Made by a program: the position numbers and the translations under genes. Shown in pieces: positions 1,639 to 47,355 of a stretch of DNA of 64,000 nucleotides; position 1 is the stretch's first letter; each line of letters opens with the position of its first letter. Under the pieces are notes generated by a model. It saw only the letters and a program-made list of their open reading frames with translations. It searched no databases and was not told the origin of the DNA. The stretch comes from an uncultured Holophagales bacterium. GTDB taxonomy: Bacteria > Acidobacteriota > Thermoanaerobaculia > Multivoradales > UBA5704. The stretch lies in the NCBI GenBank assembly GCA_963842525.1, contig CAWJGT010000014.1, positions 160,001-224,000 on the forward strand, written 5' to 3'.

Positions 1639-1751
1639 CCCTGGGAGCGCGGGCGTCCCGCCCGCCCCACGGTCCTTGTACTTACGTTGGGCTGCCGGCA
1701 AGGCACCGGTCGATGAAAGTCCGGGCGGGCGGGACGCCCGCGCTCCCAGGG
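1639..1751. repeat. REP-like inverted pair (CCCTGGGAGCGCGGGCGTCCCGCCCGC ... GCGGGCGGGACGCCCGCGCTCCCAGGG)
   Basis: Long inverted repeat between the array and RT-cas1. Confidence 0.75.
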
Positions 1752-1858
1752 AAGAAACCCCGGCATTGCTTCCCGCAACCTGCTATACTTCTTTCCAGGC
1801 GAGGATTCTTTCTGGATACGACTGCTTCCCGTTGGAAGCGGAACAGGAGAGCCTTGCC

Positions 1859-2968
1859 ATGCTCGACACGATTGCCGAACGCTCCAACCTCCGGCGGGCG
1901 TTCGAACGGGTACGGGAAAACCACGGATGCCGTGGTGCCGACGGCATGACGGTCGGCCGGTTTGCCACAGACCTGGAGGTTGAGATCGACCGCCTCCAGG
2001 ACCGCCTGCTGCGCCGCTGCTACCACCCCTTCCCCCTGCTCCAGATCCCGGTTCCAAAACGCAGCGGCAACGGCACCCGGTATCTGTGCGTCCCGACGGT
2101 GCGTGACCGGGTGGTCCAGACCGCCGTGGACCTGGTCGTCCGCCCAACCTTCGAAGCCGAATTCGAGGACTGCAGCTATGCGTTCCGCAAGGGCCGCTCG
2201 GTGCGCGATGCGGTTCGCAAGGTGGCTGAGCTGCGCGATCAGGGCTACCGCTGGCTGGTCGACGCGGACATCGATGACTGTTTTGGCAGCATTCCCCATA
2301 CCCCTCTTCTCACACGGCTCGCGCGGCTGCCATTTTCGGAGGACGTGCTCGGCCTTTTCGAGCTCTGGGTGCGCACCGAGACGGAAAAAGGCGTTCCGCA
2401 AGGAGGATCGAAGCGTGCTCTACCCTGGATGCCCTGCGGGGTCTGGAAGGCAGCGCGGCCGCCGCCTACTTCCAGGCGCTGGAAGCGATGATCCCCCAAG
2501 GGCTCGGCTTTGAAGGCCGCCAGCGGCGACCGCCCCGCGATCCCGTCAACGCGCTGCTCTCCTTTGGTTATGTCCTGGTGGGCGACGAGCTTCCAGTCGC
2601 TGCTCGACGGCATCGGCTTCGATCCCTTCATCGGTTTCCTCCATCGGCTCGACTATGGCCGCCCGTCCCTGGCGCTCGATCTCCTGGAGGAATTCCGGCC
2701 AGCCCTGGTGGACCGCTTCACCGCAAGGCTTCTCAACAACCAGATCCTCGGCCGGAAGGATTTCTTCACCACCTCCGAAGGTGGCCTCAACCTGGGACGG
2801 GAGGGCAAGCACCGCTACTTCCTGGAGTATGAGAAGGAAATGAGCACGCCACTGGAGATCGAAGGACAGAGCCTCACCTTCCGCCAAATCTTCCGCCGCC
2901 AGGCCGACCGTCTTGCCGCAGCGTTGACAAAAGATGAGCCCTACGAGAGCTTCCGGCTGCCATGCTGA
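1859..2968 (+). pseudogene. cas1: RT-Cas1 fusion, internally deleted and frameshifted
   Basis: Group II intron-like RT N-half (GADG, PKRSG..R.LCVPTVRDRVVQ, SYAFRKGRS, DADIDDCF, GVPQG). At about 2404-2407 it jumps out of frame into the Cas1 C-half (LRGLEGSAAAAYF, RRPPRDPVNALLSFGY). A +1 shift at about 2591 then gives DPFIGFLH, SLALDLLEEFRP. The YxDD motif and Cas1 N-terminus are absent. Confidence 0.9.
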
Positions 2969-7002: not shown

Positions 7003-8070
7003 GTCCCAATTGACCAGAGCAGTACGGTGGGATTGCGACATGGCTCAAGTGTGTGCCTCCCCTTTCAGGCTGATCTCGTCCCAATTGACCAGAGCAGTAC
7101 GGTGGGATTGCGACTCCACCATCGCGACCGGCGGCGTCGTCCTCAACATGGTGGTCCCAATTGACCAGAGCAGTACGGTGGGATTGCGACTCGATCTCCA
7201 CCGGCTGTCCCACTGTGGCGGGAGCGGTGCTCGCGTCCCAATTGACCAGAGCAGTACGGTGGGATTGCGACGTGATCAACCCCCAGGCGCCAGCCTCTGG
7301 AATGAGCTGGTCCCAATTGACCAGAGCAGTACGGTGGGATTGCGACGCCCCAGGCCTTCTTGTCCCCCCGGGAGCCGTAGGCTTCGTCCCAATTGACCAG
7401 AGCAGTACGGTGGGATTGCGACTCTGCTCCGGAAGATCGCTTGACTCGGTCTTGCAGGCCGAAGGTCCCAATTGACCAGAGCAGTACGGTGGGATTGCGA
7501 CTCTGTGAAAATCTTGGAGGCGGTTGCCATCTGGGCTTGCTCCTCGCCGTCCCAATTGACCAGAGCAGTACGGTGGGATTGCGACTTCTCAATTGACGTC
7601 GACGCTTTGCCCAGGAGCAAATCCCGGGACGGTCCCAATTGACCAGAGCAGTACGGTGGGATTGCGACTTCTGCGTTGTACATGTTCTGGAGGCTTCTTA
7701 CTGTTTCTGTTCCGAGTCCCAATTGACCAGAGCAGTACGGTGGGATTGCGACTATGATCCCCCTTATCCAGCTTTCCAGCTCTACACCCGGGAGAAAGTC
7801 CCAATTGACCAGAGCAGTACGGTGGGATTGCGACATCGTTCCCGGGTGCGCAGCCGGAAGGCGGGAAAGATCGGCCGTCCCAATTGACCAGAGCAGTACG
7901 GTGGGATTGCGACTTCTCCTGGACGGTGTCTCCGTCGAAAAGACCTTCGCTCGTCCCAATTGACCAGAGCAGTACGGTGGGATTGCGACGATGGTTTTGT
8001 CCGATCACATGGTTCAAACACACTCGGCCATGAGTCCCAATTGACCAGAGCAGTACGGTGGGATTGCGAC
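7003..8070 (+). CRISPR. CRISPR array 3: 14 repeats, 13 spacers
   Basis: Same 37-bp repeat. Confidence 0.98.
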
Positions 8071-8112
8071 GACCTCCTTTCTTCCCCTGAAGGGTCGCGA
8101 GGATTTTGCGCG

Positions 8113-8932
8113 GAGCTGCTGCCGCCCCTCCGGGGCTTGGAAATGTTTTTGGCTCTGTACCCGGGGTCGGCGCTCCTCCGTCGCGCCTGACCCCGGGCTA
8201 CACGCCGCCACCCCCTCCGGGGGTTCTCTTTTTTGCCAATGTAACGACCGTTGATCGAATTCACCAGAGCAGTACAGTGGGATTGCGACTACATTTTGAT
8301 CAGAGTGGTGTCTACGTCGAAGTCGCCGCCCTCCTCCCAATTGACCAGAGTAATTCGGTGGGATTGCGACATGGAGGCGGGACGGACTGGGGCGACGGCG
8401 AGGCGCTTGCTCTACGCACGAACGGGTGGCTGTGGAATGGCCCCGGAGGGGCCGCGGCGTGTAGCCCGGGGTCAGCCGCGACGAAGGAGCGGCGACCCCG
8501 GGTAGGGAGACGAAAACATTCTCAAGCCCCGTAGGGGCGGCAGCCGTTTCCGGACCGCGCCTCAGTCGAGCAGATACCGTTCGTCAAACTCGATCTTGTT
8601 CTTCCGCAGCAGTGCGATCAGCTCGTCCTTGAACGAGAGCCGCGCATGGTGCTCTTCCTGGGTCCGGATGTAACGGCGGATCGCCGGCACCTGAGAGTCC
8701 TGGATGAACGGTGCGCGGTGTTTCGTGCTGAAGATGATGTGGAAGAGGAGATTGGTGAAGGTGTTTGCCATGGGGGCGGATTATCTCAGATGCGAGGGCA
8801 CGCGCAAGAGGTGATTCCGAGCTGCTGCCGCCCCTCCGGGGCTTGGAAATGTTTTTGGCTCTGTACCCGGGGTCGGCGCTCCTCCGTCGCGCCTGACCCC
8901 GGGCTACACGCCGCCACCCCCTCCGGGGGTTC
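8113..8932. repeat. REP elements at 8113-8227, 8440-8544 (inverted) and 8819-8932
   Basis: GCCCCTCCGGGGC and ACCCGGGGTC...GACCCCGGGCTAC hairpin cassettes; copies 1 and 3 are near-identical. Confidence 0.85.
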
Positions 8933-8974
8933 TTTTGATCAATGTTGACCAGGGCAGTACGGTGGGATTGCGAC
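8253..8974 (+). CRISPR. Three degenerate trailer repeats (8253-8289, 8334-8370, 8938-8974) interrupted by REPs and a transposase remnant
   Basis: All keep the 3' GGGATTGCGAC, with mismatches in the rest of the repeat. Confidence 0.85.
8562..8771 (-). pseudogene. tnpA: IS200-like/REP-associated Y1 transposase, internally deleted
   Basis: N-terminus (FHIIFSTKHR) is joined directly to the C-terminus (SQV..IRRYIRTQEEHH). The HUH core is missing relative to the full homolog at 44224-44694. Confidence 0.85.
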
Positions 8975-9026
8975 TTTCTGACAGGAGAGGGAGTAGGCTG
9001 GCGCTGCGGCGCCTTCGTGGGCAGAG

Positions 9027-9392
9027 CTAGGCGCCAGGGCGCCGGATGCGGAGACCTTGGGGCGAGGCTACGGCGAGGAGGCCCGAGAGCGTCCGGAGAT
9101 CGGAGATGGTTCTCAAAACCTGATTGACGAGCTCGACCAAGGGACGGACTCCATCCTCGGAGGGACGTAGAAGCAAAATGCCGCCATGGCTCCCAGGTGG
9201 ATATTTCCTCACGTCGCCGAACCCTTTGTCTGCGGTGACCAGAAATTGCCGATGCTGCTGCACCCTCTCCCAAAGCTTGGGGTCCTTGAAGCCACCCATC
9301 CCTTGCTCCGAGACGGCGCTGCACTCATAGCCGCCCTCACGCAGCAGCACCGACACTGCCCGGGGAAGATCTTCGTCAACTTTGATGTGCAT
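9027..9392 (-). CDS. DUF5615/PIN-like toxin
   Basis: KVDEDLP...D..LW.....FLVTADKGFGD pattern; downstream of a DUF433 gene. Confidence 0.85.
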   Translation of the reverse strand: MHIKVDEDLPRAVSVLLREGGYECSAVSEQGMGGFKDPKLWERVQQHRQFLVTADKGFGDVRKYPPGSHGGILLLRPSEDGVRPLVELVNQVLRTISDLRTLSGLLAVASPQGLRIRRPGA

Positions 9393-9639
9393 CGGCAGCG
9401 GGCGCGGCCAGGGGGGCCACGATGTCCTGGCTCAAGACGGCGGCGGCATAGGCCAGCGCCGCCAACAGGTCTTCCTCCGCGAGTTGAGGGTAGGAGTCCA
9501 GGATCTCTTCGGGCCTCATGCCGTCGGCCAAGCTGCCGATCAGGGTTCTGACGGGGATGCGGGTCCCCTTGATGCAGGGATCTCCATGGTGGAGATCCTC
9601 GGCAACCACGATGCGATCCTGCCACCGGATACGACTCAT
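9376..9639 (-). CDS. DUF433 antitoxin
   Basis: HGDPCIKGTRIPV...EEILDSYPQL..EDL.AALAYA motif. Confidence 0.9.
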   Translation of the reverse strand: MSRIRWQDRIVVAEDLHHGDPCIKGTRIPVRTLIGSLADGMRPEEILDSYPQLAEEDLLAALAYAAAVLSQDIVAPLAAPAADAHQS

Positions 9640-9711: not shown

Positions 9712-10107
9712 CTATTCCTGGGGAGACGGCTGGAAGAGATAGAGGGTGATGCCGTTGGGGTCCTGAACGCAGAAGGTGCGATGTCCCCAGCTCTGGGTCT
9801 TCAGCTCCTGGGAAATCTGCAGGCCGTTCTCGACGGACCGCCGGTGTTGCGCCTCGACGTCTTCGACCTCGATGACCATGAATGCGCCTTGGGGAGGCCT
9901 GTGATCCCAGAGGTGGGATGATGCGCCGCTCTCCGGCAGGGCCAGCACTTCGATGATCCCGGAGGCGGCGGCGAACAGGGTCCCGCGGTCGTCGCGATTG
10001 CGATCCCAGAATTCGAGGACGGGAAGCTCCAGGCCTTCGCGATAGAACACGACGGTCGCCTCGTACTTCGGCGTGAAATAGGCGAAACGGAACTCTCCTC
10101 GGCTCAT
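9712..10107 (-). CDS. VOC/glyoxalase family protein
   Basis: FYREGLEL, VEDVEA, WGHRTFCVQDPNG motifs. Confidence 0.9.
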   Translation of the reverse strand: MSRGEFRFAYFTPKYEATVVFYREGLELPVLEFWDRNRDDRGTLFAAASGIIEVLALPESGASSHLWDHRPPQGAFMVIEVEDVEAQHRRSVENGLQISQELKTQSWGHRTFCVQDPNGITLYLFQPSPQE

Positions 10108-10116
10108 AGGACAATC

Positions 10117-10708
10117 CTAGAACAAGTCGTGCGCGGGCCAGGCCGAGATGCCCTCGATGTCCTTGATCCCCGATTTGGTGGTCATTGCTGCATGTGAGCC
10201 CGCGCTGAGGATGTCGGGCTTGGTCGGCAGGCCATCCACGCGGACCATGAAGCGCAGGAGGTCGGTAGGGGTGGCGATCCACCCGCCGTGGGAATCGAAG
10301 CGCCGCACGTTTGGCTTGTAGGACCTCGCAGGATAGTAGACGACCTCGCCCGGCTTGCGTTCGGCGAGGCTGTTGCCGGCGATCTGCATGCGGGTGATGC
10401 CGGCCTGGCTCAAGATGTGGTCACGGACGTACGTCTCGTACGGTTGACCGGTCACCTGCTCGACGATCCGCCCCAGGACGAGGACCGCGGTGAAGGGCTT
10501 CGACACGGCCGTCCTTGGTCAGTGCGATCGAGAGCCCCGGGATGCGGTGCCTGCTCCGGAACGCTTCAATCTTGGTGCGGATCAGGCTCAGATCTTTTTG
10601 ATTCCAGCCCTCTGTGCTCGCGGCATGGGTGTTGCCGGCCGACGTTGCGATCCAGATCAGGCAAGCCAAAAGGAACAGGCGGAGGGAAACAGGCGACTGT
10701 CTTGTCAT
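10117..10708 (-). pseudogene. Beta-lactamase-family serine hydrolase remnant
   Basis: Signal peptide and IPGLSIALTKDGR, then out-of-frame SKPFTAV, then directly LGRIVEQVTGQPYE and DSHGGWIATPTDL. Two internal blocks and the C-terminus are missing. Confidence 0.8.
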
Positions 10709-43502: not shown

Positions 43503-43551
43503 CGCCCGGCGATAAATCGCCGGGCTAGAAACAGCGCCCCATGAATGGGGC
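43503..43551. repeat. REP-like hairpins (GCCCGGCGATAAATCGCCGGGC; GCCCCATGAATGGGGC)
   Basis: Two adjacent hairpins at the 5' edge of the orphan FGE fragment. Confidence 0.7.
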
Positions 43552-43572
43552 TTGAAGCCGGGTTCACCGGAA

Positions 43573-43926
43573 GCCGATCCGGAGCGGGCGAGCTACGATG
43601 AAACAGGCATTGATGAGCCGAGCACGGTAGGCTGTTTCCCAGGCGGCGCCAGTCCTTGTGGGTGCGAGGAGATGAGCGGCAACGTGTGGGAATGGACGCG
43701 GAGCCTGTGGGGGAAAAGTGGGGATAAGCCGATCGGGTACCCATACGACCCTCGGGACGGCCGTGAGGACCCGACATCCTCCGGTCCCCGTGTGTTGCGG
43801 GGCGGCGCTTGCTACCTCGATTCTTCGAATGTGCGTTGCGCCATCCGCGGCGGGGCCGATCCTGCGGTCCGTAACAGGAACCTAGGATTTCGGGTCGTGC
43901 TGCTCCCATTCTCCTCTGATCTCTGA
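43573..43926 (+). pseudogene. Orphan C-terminal FGE-sulfatase (C-type lectin fold) cassette with DGR variable region VR-A (43792-43926)
   Basis: [16 protein letters not shown]...GFRVV; inverted paralog of 44948-45300; no N-terminus. Confidence 0.85.
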
Positions 43927-43971
43927 ACCCTCTGGCCTCTGATCTCTCTGGACCATGCGATCGGCCATCCT

Positions 43972-44876
43972 CGCCCAGGGTTCACACCCTGGGCTACCCA
44001 ATGGCGCCCTCCGGGCTCAGAAGCCTCCACCACACCAGCCAGAAGAGCGGGTTTCCAGAGCCCGGAGGGCGGCACCCGGTAGCCCAGGGTGTGAACCCTG
44101 GGCGCTGGACGGGGCGCTGGCTGGAAACTCGGCGCTACGTTAAGCTCCCCATCCGATAAAAGGAGTCATCGGAAGACACGACATGCCCCCAACAGCCTCC
44201 GGGGCTCAAGGAGAGGACGTACCATGGCGCACAGCTATACAAACCTGAAGTATCACGTCGTCTTCAGCACCAAGCTCCGTCTGCCTTGGATCTCCGCAGA
44301 GCTGGAACCGGCTCTGTACGGCTACATCGGCAACGTCATTCGCAACAAGGGCGGACAGAGCATCGAGATCGGCGGGATCGAGGATCATGTCCACATCCTG
44401 GCGGGTTTTCCGCAGAGCCGCTCGGTGGCCGCCATGGTGGGCGCGATCAAGTCAAATTCATCGAGCTTCGGCAAGGAGGAGAGCAGTAACACAGCCTTCA
44501 GTTGGCAGGAGGGCTACGCAGCCTTCACAGTGAGCGAATCGCAGGTTTCCCGAGTAAGGCGGTACATCCAGCGCCAGAAAGAGCATCATCGCGTACAGAG
44601 CTATGAAGACGAGGTCCGCGAGCTTTGCCGCCGTCACGGCATCAAGCTCGAGGACTCCTTTTTTGAGGACGACCCGGACGGCGGTATTGGGTGAGGCGAT
44701 GGGGCCGACGGCGGTAACGAACAATAATGCCTGGCCCATCCCCACCCAGGGTTTACACCCTGGGCTACCCAATGGCGCCCTCCGGGCTCAGAGGCCATCC
44801 ACCCCGCCAGCCTGAAGCGAGGGTTCCCAGAGCCCGGAGGGCGGCACTCGGTAGCCCAGGGTGTGAACCCTGGGCG
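43972..44876. mobile_element. REP-flanked Y1 transposase unit (REP pairs at 43972-44104 and 44745-44876)
   Basis: CCCAGGGTT(C/T)ACACCCTGGGCTACCCAATGGCGCCCTCCGGGCTC inverted doublets on both sides of tnpA. Confidence 0.85.
44224..44694 (+). CDS. tnpA: IS200/IS605-family (RAYT-like) Y1 transposase
   Basis: YHVVFSTK, HUH motif DHVHIL, WQEGY.AF.VS, YI..Q.EHH. Confidence 0.93.
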   Translation: MAHSYTNLKYHVVFSTKLRLPWISAELEPALYGYIGNVIRNKGGQSIEIGGIEDHVHILAGFPQSRSVAAMVGAIKSNSSSFGKEESSNTAFSWQEGYAAFTVSESQVSRVRRYIQRQKEHHRVQSYEDEVRELCRRHGIKLEDSFFEDDPDGGIG

Positions 44877-44947
44877 ATGGCGGGCTGGAGGCCCCCCTCG
44901 GCTCCCCCTCCCATCTCATGGTCCAGAGAACCCAGAGGCCAGAGAGT

Positions 44948-47016
44948 TCAGAGATCAGAGGAGAATGGGAGCAGCACGACCCGAAAGCCTATGAGCCTGA
45001 AACGGTCCGAAGGATCGTTCCTGAAGCGGATGGCGCAACGCACATACGTAGAATCGTAGAGGTAAGCGCCGCCCCGCAACACACGGGGGCCGGAGGATGT
45101 CGGATCCTCGCGGCCATCCAGCGGATCGTATGGGTAACCGATCGGCTTGTTCCACGCTTTTCCCCACAAGCTCCGCGTCCACTCCCACACGTTGCCGCTC
45201 ATCTCCTCGCAGCCGTACGGACTGGCCCCACCTGGGAAACAACCGACCGGGCTCGGCTCCCCGATCCGGGTTTCGTCGTAATTCGCCCGCTCCGGGTCCG
45301 CCTTCTCGCCCCATGGATACCTGCTCCCCTCTGCCCCCCTTGCTGCCTTCTCCCACTCCGCTTCTGAAGGCACTGCCGCGGTCAGCTCACCGCGGGCGAG
45401 CCGTTCCCGGAATGCTTCACCGCAACATCGTCGACCACGCGCGACTGCGCCAGCTCGCGCAGCCTCCCGGTCAGCCACCGGCCGTAAGCCAGGGCGTCGT
45501 GCCAGGAAACGCCGACAATAGGATGGTTCACCACCCCCTCCAGAGCCTCCGGCGGAACCTCGTGCCCGCTCTGCACCACGAAGGCCCGAAACTGCTCCAC
45601 CGTCACCGGATAGCGAGCCATACCAGAACGCACCGGCGGGCACCTCCACGAAACCCATGAAGGGGTCCCGCGGCAGGAACCACCGCTCCGGATCGAACCG
45701 CGAATCGCCCAGCCTCGCCAGCGTCTTGCCGGCCAGCGCCCGCCGTGCCAGGACGGTCCCCCTGGGCGGCGTGGACTTCGAAGGCCAGCTCTTCCAACGC
45801 CTGCCGCAGCTTTTCCTTGCCTACGTCCAGGTACTGCGCCAGGCTTGGCTGGAGCGCCGGCCGGCCCTGGGCGTCGTGGATCACCCGGTGGCGCTCCCAG
45901 CGGTCGAGGAGCAGCTCGACGGTCTCGGCGTAGAGCTCCTCACGTTCTCCGGCAGGTCCGCGCCCCGCCAGGCGTGGAGGCACGCCATCAGCGTCAACAG
46001 GAGAGGCCGGCCGGCCAGCTCGCGCAGGTGCTCGCGGCTGAAGATCGCCTGCCGCAAGTGCGCGGCCTTCCCCTCGACGTCCGCCCGGAGCCTTCCCACC
46101 TGCGCGGAGTGTGCGTACCAGCGGGCGACGAAGCGCTGGATCTGGCCGTCGCTGAACGGGGCGAGCACCGCCTCGGCGAAGCCGCGCAGTTTCCAGTCCT
46201 GCTTCTGGTAGGCATAGGTACGGCTGGTGAGGAGCACCCGGCACTTCCCGAAGCTCCGTGCAAAGTCCTCCACCGCCTCGCGGATCTGCTCCCGGCGTTG
46301 CTCTGCCTCTGGAACCTCGTCGAGGCCGTCCAGCAGGATGAGGCCGCCCGTCTCCTGGAGATGCTTGTACAGGAGGCCGGTACAGCCGCCGAGACTCGCT
46401 TTCGCCAGCGTCCCTGCAACGAAGTCCCACAGATGGCTCGCGGTGGCCTTGACTCCGACCGTCGGCAGGCCCTCGGCCGCGAAGTCCCGCAACACCACAC
46501 GTACAGGGAGAAGAGGCCCGTGATCCCAAGGCTGGGGCTCCTTCTCATCCTCCCCCTGGTTGTCCGGCAGCGGTGCCCGCAGGAGGTCGAGCCCAACCTG
46601 CGGCGGGCCCAACGCCTCGCCTGCCAGGCACAGCGCCACAAAGTTGACGAACGTGCTCTTGCCGCTGCCGGGATCGCCCAGCAGCACCAGGCGGGGGTGC
46701 CGGTTGAGCTGCTCCAAGGCCGAGAGGTTCCGCTGCCCACGCTCGAAAGAGGCGGGCAACTCGCGGTCCTCGCGCGGCGCGAGCGTGAGCAGGGCCGTAT
46801 ATACGGCGTCGAGGCTCATGCCGGCCTCCCCGTCTCCGCCGGCCGAGGCCTTGTCGATCCCGGCGAGCGACAGCGCCGCGGTCTCCTGGTAGAGGCGGGT
46901 GAGATAGGCCCGGCGCAGCGCCGCGGGATCGACGGCCGAGCCCCGGCCCTCCCGGGGTGCGACGACGAGATCGCCGTGGACGTCTCCGCGGACGATCACG
47001 CTCCCCGCGCCGCAGG
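44948..47016 (-). pseudogene. NACHT NTPase-FGE/CLec fusion (DGR target, VR-B at 44948-45082); 5'-truncated, frameshifted, internally deleted
   Basis: Walker [10 protein letters not shown], Walker [20 protein letters not shown]; then ARYPVTV.QF, SEAEWEKAARG, GNVWEW and RVLRGG spread over several frames. Confidence 0.88.
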
Positions 47017-47017
47017 A

Positions 47018-47355
47018 ACCATCAAGGAGTGGATCAAGATCCGGGCGCGGCAACAGCAGATCGGGGAGCTCCACCCGGGAGATCGAGAGGACGGTGGCGC
47101 GGCTGGAGGCGCGGGAGCAGGAGCTGCTTGATCGGATCCAGAACCTGGAGACCATCGTCGTCGAGCCAGACGTGGAACGCGCTGCATGACACGGGGCTCT
47201 CCGCAGCGGACCGGGAGCTGAAGGTCGCCTCCACGGCCCGGCGCGAGCTGAAGCCCGTGGAGTCCGACGACGCCAACCGCCAGAGGGCCGAGCAGCTCGC
47301 CCGCCGTCTGCAGGGATGAGGCGGCTCTCCCAAGAACCTCACCCCCTGTCCCCCT
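47018..47355 (+). pseudogene. 5'-truncated, frameshifted copy of gene 51788-52138 with downstream DNA
   Basis: Near-identical to 51839-52175; extra G at about 47163. Confidence 0.88.

What the first reader, a model, noticed from the sequence alone, without database searches (positions are those of the whole stretch)
43792..45082. Two DGR variable regions with an adenine-mutagenesis signature but no local RT or template
VR-A (43792-43926, +) and VR-B (44948-45082, -) differ at 20 positions in 14 codons, 19 of them at codon positions 1-2 (e.g. TAC/CTC, GGC/TTC, GCC/AAC, AAC/TTC, AAC/CTC). All are compatible with an AAC-rich template, and the flanks and post-stop CTCTGGCCTCTG tail are conserved. 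Established: DGRs mutate adenines and often target FGE/C-type-lectin C-termini, including NACHT-linked sensors. No TR, avd or DGR RT is visible here, so these are remote targets.
Basis: partly seen in the sequence, partly recalled or inferred. Interest (0 to 1): 0.82.

Follow-up and report, generated by a model that had tools for sequence, protein, structure and literature searches.

The report
Orphaned DGR variable regions, cassette lost
Two neighbouring gene ends carry the clear scars of targeted hypermutation by a diversity-generating retroelement, but the retroelement itself is missing from the genome and both genes are decaying, so this looks like a known system caught just after its engine was lost.

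Summary
VR-A and VR-B differ at 20 positions in 14 codons, 19 of them at codon positions 1-2. It is far more than chance. The 73 flank codons carry 21 purely synonymous differences; the 47 codons from the VR to the stop carry one (Fisher p=1.6e-4). Both VRs were therefore rewritten from one adenine-rich template after the genes had diverged.

They are FGE/C-type-lectin ends of NACHT sensor genes. In relatives these genes are targets of an avd-TR-RT cassette.

"Remote targets" is not supported. The 34-contig assembly holds no matching TR. Its only Avd and DGR RT, on contig C3, serve an unrelated TR.

Metagenome contig L201 has the same convergent pair of targets with an intact cassette between them. 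L179 has the pair with only Avd and RT stubs. In the window that space holds an IS200-like transposase between two palindromic repeats. VR-A is a 3' gene fragment and VR-B sits on a pseudogene.

Most likely these are recently orphaned local targets. A cassette that escaped assembly is not excluded. This is a new member of a known kind, of moderate interest.

The parts
43503..43562 (.). Copy of a dispersed 60-nt repeat that abuts the 5' truncation point of the VR-A gene fragment.
   Evidence: The blastn returned 37 alignments for this repeat, most at 88-97% identity (three at about 78%). Homology of fragment A to gene B starts at about 43573.
43552..43926 (+). VR-A ORF fragment of 124 aa. It is only the C-terminal part of an FGE-sulfatase/C-type-lectin domain, that is, a 3' remnant of a NACHT-FGE sensor gene.
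   Evidence: Pfam PF03781, E=2.8e-17, covers profile positions 159-254 of 255 only. tblastn with the intact paralog C28 matches only its residues 851-964.
43786..43928 (+). VR-A tract homogenised with VR-B. The 20 variable positions lie at 43811-43887. The six sites with A in both copies are 43820, 43829, 43843, 43859, 43876 and 43884.
   Evidence: The 5' edge coincides with where TR homology starts in the DGR of relative G029.
43927..43957 (+). Post-stop tail of CTCTGR repeats after VR-A. No GC hairpin follows it.
   Evidence: This kind of tail follows VRs but followed none of the 9 TRs examined in complete DGRs.
43965..44106 (.). REP-like palindromic element of about 140 nt, left copy.
   Evidence: 91% identical to the right copy, with dozens of further copies in the genome (92 alignments, many loci hit on both strands). 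It folds on itself.
44224..44694 (+). IS200-like Y1 (tyrosine) transposase gene of 156 aa. It occupies the space where relatives carry avd-TR-RT.
   Evidence: Pfam PF01797 Y1_Tnp, E=1e-22. The genome has 20 Y1_Tnp matches in all.
44737..44878 (.). REP-like palindromic element, right copy.
44880..44916 (-). Left arm only of the GC-rich hairpin that normally follows the tail. The right arm is replaced by the REP-like element.
   Evidence: Compare the intact hairpins of C9a, C9b, C23b and L179 with VR-B.
44917..44947 (-). Post-stop CTCTGR tail after VR-B.
44948..45090 (-). VR-B tract homogenised with VR-A. It includes the stop codon at 44948-44950.
44948..47155 (-). VR-B gene: a NACHT-FGE sensor pseudogene in at least three ORF pieces (45881-47155, 45603-46529, 44948-45658). 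Lesions: a frameshift near 45945; a deletion of about 500 nt near 45742; an 80-nt deletion plus a 1-nt deletion inside the FGE domain.
   Evidence: Pfam NACHT, E=6.8e-11, and FGE-sulfatase, E=4.1e-28. tblastn with the intact paralogs C28 and C9b changes frame -1/-3/-1 and skips C28 residues 514-679. Nucleotide alignment. L179 has 508 nt where the window has none.

Best explanation
VR-A and VR-B are the 3' ends of the two convergent target genes of a former diversity-generating retroelement. The inferred ancestral layout is: target A, then avd, TR and RT, then target B pointing back toward them.

The RT copied an adenine-rich template RNA, misreading adenines. The cDNA replaced the last ~140 nt of each target. 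This erased ordinary divergence there and left random bases at about 26 template adenines, mostly the first two positions of AAC-type codons.

The post-stop CTCTGR tail, and normally a GC hairpin after it, mark the recipient copy and are absent from the template.

The cassette was later lost. Its place is now held by an IS200-like transposase between two palindromic repeats. Target A is cut down to its last 124 codons, and target B has frameshifts and deletions. The two VRs are therefore recently frozen fossils.

Shown: the mutation signature, the homogenisation, the absence of a cognate cassette from the assembly, the gene decay, and the intact and half-deleted versions of the layout in relatives.

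Inferred: that the cassette lay between these two VRs, that the tail is the homing signal, and that diversification has stopped.
For: 1. Signature and homogenisation. There are 20 differences, 19 at codon positions 1-2. Synonymous differences are 21 in 73 flank codons against 1 in 47 VR codons. The site classes fit a binomial model. The third copy, C28, differs preferentially at sites where A and B both keep A.

2. Relative G029 carries target, bAvd, TR, RT, target on homologous NACHT-FGE genes. Its TR has AAC codons at the codons that vary here. TR homology starts at the same position as the homogenised tract.

3. Of 54 metagenome loci encoding relatives of the VR-B NACHT part, 15 have a G029-type RT, 18 an Avd and 21 at least one of them.

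4. L201 has the same convergent arrangement with an intact cassette: g1 VR 8011-8137 (+), RT 8467-9504 (-), TR 9789-9898 (-), Avd 10053-10382 (-), g2 VR (-).

5. L179 matches the VR-B gene at 76% nucleotide identity over 1287 nt. It has the convergent VR pair with only Avd residues 2-44 joined to RT residues 312-399 between them, and no TR.

6. In this genome there is no TR-like copy. There is one Avd and one DGR-type RT, both on C3, with an unrelated TR.

7. The interval between the two tails is filled by REP, Y1 transposase, REP.

8. Published precedent: incomplete DGR loci degraded by transposons, and clade 5D DGRs with two STAND-CLec targets (PMC10907252, passages read).
Against: 1. The two VRs show no substitution at 94 non-adenine sites. 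Yet the VR-B gene carries at least four indel lesions and VR-A is truncated. If homing had stopped before that decay, a few ordinary substitutions might be expected. Homing may therefore have continued on dead genes, which leaves room for a cassette that still exists.

2. The assembly is a 34-contig genome estimated 96% complete, so a 2.5-kb cassette on an unbinned element cannot be excluded.

3. L179 and L201 are not strict orthologs. L179 matches the VR-B gene at 69-76% nucleotide identity; L201 matches its NACHT part at 53% protein identity. In the 3' region both VR-A and VR-B are slightly closer to L179 g2 than to g1. The layout argument is therefore by analogy.

4. In genus relative G001 a homologous gene lies on the other side of the amine-oxidase ortholog, so local synteny is not conserved.

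5. No reads could be examined.
Confidence: 0.58

Rival explanations
1. Live remote targets. A cognate avd-TR-RT cassette still exists in this organism. It could be on an unassembled or unbinned replicon, or in a structural variant of this locus carried by part of the population. It would still rewrite VR-A, VR-B and the C28 copy in trans, even though two of the three sit on broken genes.
For: There are no ordinary substitutions between the two VRs despite several indel lesions in their genes. A third VR of the same template family lies on another contig on an intact 964-aa gene. Completeness is 96%. Homing needs only elements at and downstream of the VR, not the upstream gene (abstract of PMC3240598). 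Variants with intact RT and TR were found by long reads at a disrupted locus in Thiohalocapsa (PMC10907252, passage).
Against: No TR, no second Avd and no second DGR RT was found in any of the 34 contigs. With the C3 RT as query (E<=1e-20), RT matches came up in only 2 of the 5 other genomes of the genus, G001 and G002. The repeat pairs beside both lack the tail. The pattern scans of two public collections found nothing. The GC hairpin is missing after VR-A and C28 and is halved after VR-B; in the Bordetella phage the equivalent structure is needed for efficient homing (abstract).
Confidence: 0.3
2. No retroelement was involved. Two paralogous lectin-fold ends diverged by ordinary mutation under diversifying selection on ligand-contact residues, while gene conversion between the inverted copies kept the rest identical.
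For: The variable codons coincide with the naturally variable loops of FGE-type domains in all paralogs. The copies are inverted repeats about 1 kb apart, which favours conversion. In the near-complete genome G024, three tandem paralogs vary at the same codons without any TR.
Against: Gene conversion would also have erased the 20 differences. Six codons changed at both of the first two positions with no synonymous change anywhere in 47 codons. The site classes fit adenine loss, and the third copy changes preferentially at conserved adenines. Both genes are non-functional, so selection on binding residues is implausible. Homologs in relatives are demonstrably DGR targets.
Confidence: 0.04
3. 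The DGR on contig C3 diversifies these VRs in trans.
For: It is the only Avd and DGR-type RT in the assembly. Its own VR differs from its TR at adenines, so it has been active.
Against: Its TR does not resemble VR-A/B (no blastn match). Its VR has no CTCTGR tail. Its RT is only 41% identical to the RT type linked to tailed VRs. Its RT reading frame is interrupted before the YVDD motif in this assembly.
Confidence: 0.02

Closest known systems
Incomplete DGR loci and remote targets of Thiohalocapsa sp. PB-PSB1; clade 5D DGRs with two STAND NTPase-CLec targets (Doré et al., PNAS 2024, PMC10907252; passages read)
   Same: The targets are NACHT/STAND NTPases ending in a C-type-lectin/FGE domain, often two per cassette. 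Some loci lack an RT or TR. Some VRs have no perfect template elsewhere in the genome. Transposons and MITE-like repeats degrade the loci.
   Different: Here no cognate template exists anywhere in the assembly, both targets are themselves broken, and no read data were available to test for ongoing diversification or intact variants.
Remote variable proteins and 'VP homologs' of cyanobacterial DGRs (Vallota-Eastman et al., BMC Genomics 2020, PMC7517822; passages read)
   Same: They are CLec paralogs dispersed in the genome with the VR at the 3' end, with transposases nearby. Paralogs without TR homology are recognised as a class.
   Different: Those remote targets are defined by homology to a TR present in the same genome. 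That criterion fails here.
Bordetella phage BPP-1 DGR target recognition: IMH plus hairpin/cruciform (Guo et al., PLoS Genet 2011, PMC3240598; abstract read)
   Same: A cis element immediately downstream of the VR, including a GC stem with a 4-nt loop, accompanies the targets. The upstream gene sequence is dispensable, which would explain rewriting of a gene fragment.
   Different: In BPP-1 the TR carries a near-copy of IMH (my recollection, not from the abstract). In this clade the CTCTGR-repeat tail is absent from all 9 TRs examined. The role of the tail here is untested.
Canonical DGR of relative G029 (L071) and metagenome loci L201 and L179
   Same: The target family, the tail and the positions of the template AAC codons are the same. 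L201 and L179 share the convergent two-target layout.
   Different: G029 and L201 have intact avd-TR-RT and L179 has stubs. The window has none; it has a Y1 transposase unit instead.

Membership tests
Complete diversity-generating retroelement (DGR) | A template repeat whose differences from the VR are confined to template adenines. | tested here: not met
   Word-7 blastn over all 34 contigs finds only VR-A, VR-B and C28 above 72% identity. Among the 20 sites where VR-A and VR-B differ, A has adenine at 7, B at 8, and neither at 5, so neither can be the template of the other. C28 also differs at non-adenine sites.
Complete diversity-generating retroelement (DGR) | A DGR-clade reverse transcriptase near the TR. 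| tested here: not met
   The window's only RT domain is an RT-Cas1 remnant. The only DGR-type RT in the genome is on C3, next to an unrelated TR. Recognising the C3 RT as DGR-type by its IGxxxSQ-like motif rests on my recollection of that motif.
Complete diversity-generating retroelement (DGR) | The accessory protein Avd. | tested here: not met
   The G029 Avd (Pfam bAvd, E=1.5e-16) finds one match in the genome, on C3.
DGR variable region / target | The VR lies at the 3' end of an ORF encoding a C-type-lectin/FGE fold. | tested here: met
   PF03781 runs to the end of both ORFs. The variable codons lie within the last 39 codons before the stop.
DGR variable region / target | Adenine-specific substitutions concentrated at codon positions 1-2, with non-adenine sites copied faithfully. 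| tested here: met
   19 of 20 differences are at codon positions 1-2. 94 non-A sites are identical. The site classes fit a binomial model of adenine loss. The C28 test gives p=0.006. This is indirect, because no template is available.
DGR variable region / target | Cis recognition elements downstream of the VR (IMH-like sequence and hairpin). | tested here: inconclusive
   The tail is present after both VRs. The GC hairpin is absent after VR-A and only half present after VR-B. That the tail is the recognition element is inferred from its presence after VRs and its absence after 0 of 9 TRs.
STAND (NACHT) NTPase sensor with C-terminal CLec domain | A NACHT NTPase domain and a C-terminal FGE/CLec domain in one intact protein. 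| tested here: not met
   Both domains are present on the VR-B gene, but they are split by a frameshift and deletions. VR-A lacks everything except the last 124 codons. Intact paralogs exist: C28 964 aa, C4 987 aa and a roughly 1009-aa ORF on C34.
IS200/IS605-type Y1 transposase unit | A Y1_Tnp domain protein flanked by palindromic elements. | tested here: met
   PF01797, E=1e-22. The flanking ~140-nt palindromes are 91% identical to each other and dispersed through the genome. The catalytic residues were not examined.

The most novel reading that the evidence does not exclude
It may be the recipient-specific homing signal of a whole clade of cellular DGRs that target STAND-lectin sensors.

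The tail follows VRs in several phyla and is absent from every template examined. It would then set the direction of transfer by a rule different from the IMH/IMH* near-repeat of the Bordetella phage. It would also make any DNA carrying it, including dead gene fragments such as VR-A, a substrate for rewriting.
Probability: 0.45. Interest if true: 0.55.

Novelty: new member of a known kind. Interest (0 to 1): 0.36.

Why it matters
The locus shows how a hypermutation system dies. The engine (avd-TR-RT) goes first, displaced by mobile repeats. The written regions remain as a readable record from which the lost template can be inferred.

With L201 (intact), L179 (stubs) and this window (replaced), there is a three-step decay series for one locus architecture.

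There is also a practical point for annotation. DGR finders that require an RT or a TR will miss such orphan VRs. A test based on synonymous-site homogenisation combined with adenine-site statistics can recognise them.

The VR-specific tail, if it is the homing signal, would be a compact handle for predicting or engineering targets of this DGR clade.

Tried and rejected
1. Template search in public collections. I used an IUPAC pattern of the VR with N at every variable or adenine site. Genome contigs gave 0 matches. A shorter pattern in metagenome contigs gave 0 matches. Exact-match patterns would miss diverged templates, and records of the window's own genome may be left out.

2. Sequencing runs: none was listed for window:43000-46000. 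Read-level variation could not be examined and read laying was not used.

3. Relatives. A DNA search with the VR in 61 genomes matched 16, counting this genome. All the matches I aligned are gene ends with the tail, not templates. Only 12 candidates per genome were scored there, so a template could have been missed in relatives. For the window's own genome I ran a complete blastn.

4. A first regular expression for the tail was wrong and returned only noise. It was replaced by blastn.

5. Synteny by tblastx was too noisy to use beyond the amine-oxidase and FGE matches.

6. Earlier notes of this scan: nothing returned.

7. Taxon name: the search for related loci returned only distant named relatives, up to 63% identity, from Chloroflexota, Pseudomonadota, Nitrospirota and others. 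I did not name the organism.

8. I considered VR-A as the template, because it is a non-functional gene fragment. I rejected this: it keeps the VR-type tail, and VR-B has adenine at 8 of the sites where VR-A does not.
Full report
**1. The observation**

Window 43552-43926 (+) and 44948-45658 (-) are ORFs. Their last ~130 codons align without gaps.

Anchored on the stop codons, 14 codons between 43810 and 43887 differ at 20 nucleotides. 19 of these are at codon position 1 or 2, and one is at position 3 (GGA/GGC).

From 43786 to 43928 nothing else differs. The 31-nt post-stop tail differs at 4 bases.

**2. More than chance**

The upstream flank is 73 aligned codons. It has 21 purely synonymous and 9 non-synonymous codon differences. 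The two genes are therefore old paralogs that evolved under purifying selection.

The next 47 codons have one synonymous difference (Fisher p=1.6e-4). Something reset this tract in both copies after the genes diverged, yet left 20 differences at first and second codon positions.

In the first 120 nt of the tract:
- 6 sites have A in both copies.
- 15 sites have A in one copy.
- 5 sites differ without A.
- 94 sites are identical non-A.

This matches independent retention of a template adenine with probability 0.52 (expected 7/13/6).

A third copy lies at the end of an intact 964-aa NACHT-FGE gene on contig C28. It differs from A/B at 3 of the 6 both-A sites but at only 5 of the 94 non-A sites (p=0.006). 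That test of adenine specificity does not use the sites on which the finding was made.

Neither VR-A, VR-B nor C28 can be the template of the others.

**3. What the genes are**

VR-A's ORF matches only the last part of the FGE-sulfatase profile, positions 159-254 of 255. It matches only residues 851-964 of the intact paralog. Homology to gene B starts at about 43573, right after a copy of a 60-nt repeat that gave 37 blastn alignments in the genome. VR-A is a 3' fragment.

The VR-B gene has NACHT and FGE domains, but it is broken:
- The frame changes -1/-3/-1 near 45945.
- About 166 residues (about 500 nt) are missing near 45742.
- An 80-nt and a 1-nt deletion put about 75 codons of the FGE domain out of frame.

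The genome has nine FGE gene ends with the same tail. Three are long open reading frames: C28, C4 and C34. C9b (920 aa) is open, but part of its FGE domain looks frame-shifted. The remaining five, including both window copies, are visibly degenerate.

**4. The retroelement is missing**

A complete word-7 blastn of both VRs against all 34 contigs finds only the three copies above 72% identity.

A Pfam RVT_1 search finds group-II-like RTs in several copies, an RT-Cas1 remnant at window 1676-2832, and one DGR-type RT on contig C3.

The C3 locus is a canonical DGR: an FGE target, Avd, a TR 89% identical to its VR, and an RT. Its TR is unrelated to VR-A/B. Its VR has no tail. Its RT frame is interrupted before YVDD in this assembly.

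The Avd and RT of relative G029 find nothing else in the genome.

Pattern scans of two public collections found nothing, and no sequencing run was listed.

**5. Relatives show what is missing**

In G029 (same family, another genus) two NACHT-FGE genes flank bAvd, a TR and an RT.
- Its TR carries AAC codons exactly where VR-A/B vary.
- TR homology begins at the position where the A/B homogenised tract begins.
- The VRs, but not the TR, are followed by the CTCTGR tail and a GC hairpin.

The same holds in nine complete cassettes examined: G029, two genome loci (L141, L092) and six metagenome loci (L211, L174, L210, L189, L177, L201). In each, the adenine-rich copy has no tail: 0 of 9 TRs.

A metagenome search with the NACHT part of the VR-B gene returned 54 loci. 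15 have this RT type, 18 the Avd and 21 at least one of the two. Many of these contigs are short, so those are minimum figures.

**6. The layout**

L201 has a convergent pair of targets with RT, TR and Avd between them on the strand of the second target.

L179 is a 4.9-kb contig that matches the VR-B gene at 76% nucleotide identity over 1287 nt. It has the same convergent pair, each with tail and intact hairpin. Between them lie only Avd residues 2-44 (84% to the G029 Avd) joined to RT residues 312-399 (47%). The rest of Avd, the TR and most of the RT are deleted.

In the window the corresponding interval holds a REP-like palindrome, an IS200-like Y1 transposase and a second palindrome. The hairpin is gone after VR-A and halved after VR-B.

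The simplest reading is a decay series: intact (L201), cassette gutted (L179), cassette replaced and targets decaying (this window). C28 would then have been a genuine remote target of the lost cassette. Its VR carries a few extra non-adenine differences, so it was last written earlier, or from a slightly different version of the template.

**7. What remains open**

The perfect identity of the two VRs at non-adenine sites sits oddly with the number of indel lesions in their genes. Rewriting may have continued on dead genes, which homing mechanics allow (abstract of PMC3240598).

A cassette on an unassembled element, or in a population variant, is therefore a real alternative. Such a variant was found at a disrupted Thiohalocapsa locus (PMC10907252). 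I give this alternative about 0.3.

With the C3 RT as query (E<=1e-20), RT matches came up in only 2 of the 5 other genomes of the genus, G001 and G002. The repeat pairs beside both lack the tail. Those genomes are fragmented MAGs.

In G024, a 4-contig genome, three tandem tailed paralogs have no template at all. Orphan tailed genes are therefore a real state in this bacterial family, not only an assembly artefact.

**8. Comparison with what is known, and verdict**

The following are all described:
- STAND-CLec targets, two-target cassettes, incomplete loci, trans-diversified remote targets and transposon damage (PMC10907252, passages).
- Remote variable proteins and VP homologs (PMC7517822, passages).
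- Downstream recognition elements (PMC3240598, abstract).

This locus fails the membership test for a complete DGR: no TR, RT or Avd. It passes for a DGR-written variable region. It is a new member of a known kind.

One element may be new: the VR-specific CTCTGR tail as a candidate homing signal. I found no description of it in the passages I read. My two literature searches were not designed to exclude one, so I make no claim that it is unpublished.

Noticed in passing
window 1676-2832 (+): An RT domain ORF (RVT_1 positions 1-123) runs straight into a Cas1 fragment in another frame. It looks like a broken CRISPR-associated RT-Cas1 fusion. It is the only RT domain in the window and is not of DGR type.
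   Followed up: partly
G000 contig C3:958000-962300 (locus L036 6084-10230): A canonical DGR: a 412-aa FGE target with its VR at L036 7152-7296, an Avd-like ORF, a TR at 8647-8791 (89% identical; the differences I inspected are at template adenines), and an RT. The RT frame breaks between ...FVKRE and ...LKVPGYLRYVDD. This is either a real frameshift or an assembly indel.
   Followed up: partly
Nine loci in G000: C14 x2, C28:6203, C9:1916740, C9:1921038, C4:105106, C23:396779, C23:2038, C34:146338. Also L075, L077, L079, L081, L083, L092, L099, L126, L141, L143.: A post-stop tail of three to six (C/T)TCTGR words, often followed by a GC hairpin with compensatory stem changes (CCGAGGGGGG.../CCAGAGGGGG...), follows NACHT-FGE genes. 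In one search a simple pattern (three TCTGR words close together) hit 10 of 80 named loci from several phyla. Across genera of this family the tail is better conserved than the adjacent coding sequence.
   Followed up: partly
G000 C23:2038-2232 (-): An FGE gene remnant in which the whole VR is cleanly missing: ...WEWTRS joined directly to AFSSEL-stop. It is still followed by an intact tail and hairpin.
   Followed up: no
G000 C9:1916740-1923900 (locus L160): Two tailed NACHT-FGE genes lie in tandem. The upstream one is split into at least three frames. A second VR family (C9a, C9b, C4) differs among its members mainly at first and second codon positions, again without a template in the genome. 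Between the two genes lies a 176-aa ORF that looks like a REP-associated tyrosine transposase. It was not among the Pfam Y1_Tnp matches.
   Followed up: partly
window 43965-44106 and 44737-44878; window 43503-43562: Two dispersed repeat families. One is a ~140-nt self-complementary element (92 blastn alignments in the genome, many loci hit on both strands). The other is a 60-nt element (37 alignments, most at 88-97% identity), also seen downstream of an FGE gene in relative G002.
   Followed up: partly
G024 C4:859378-865965 (locus L158): Three tandem NACHT-FGE paralogs with tail-type VR-like ends, with no template copy anywhere in a 4-contig, 99%-complete genome. A tail-less DGR lies 33-39 kb away.
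   Followed up: partly
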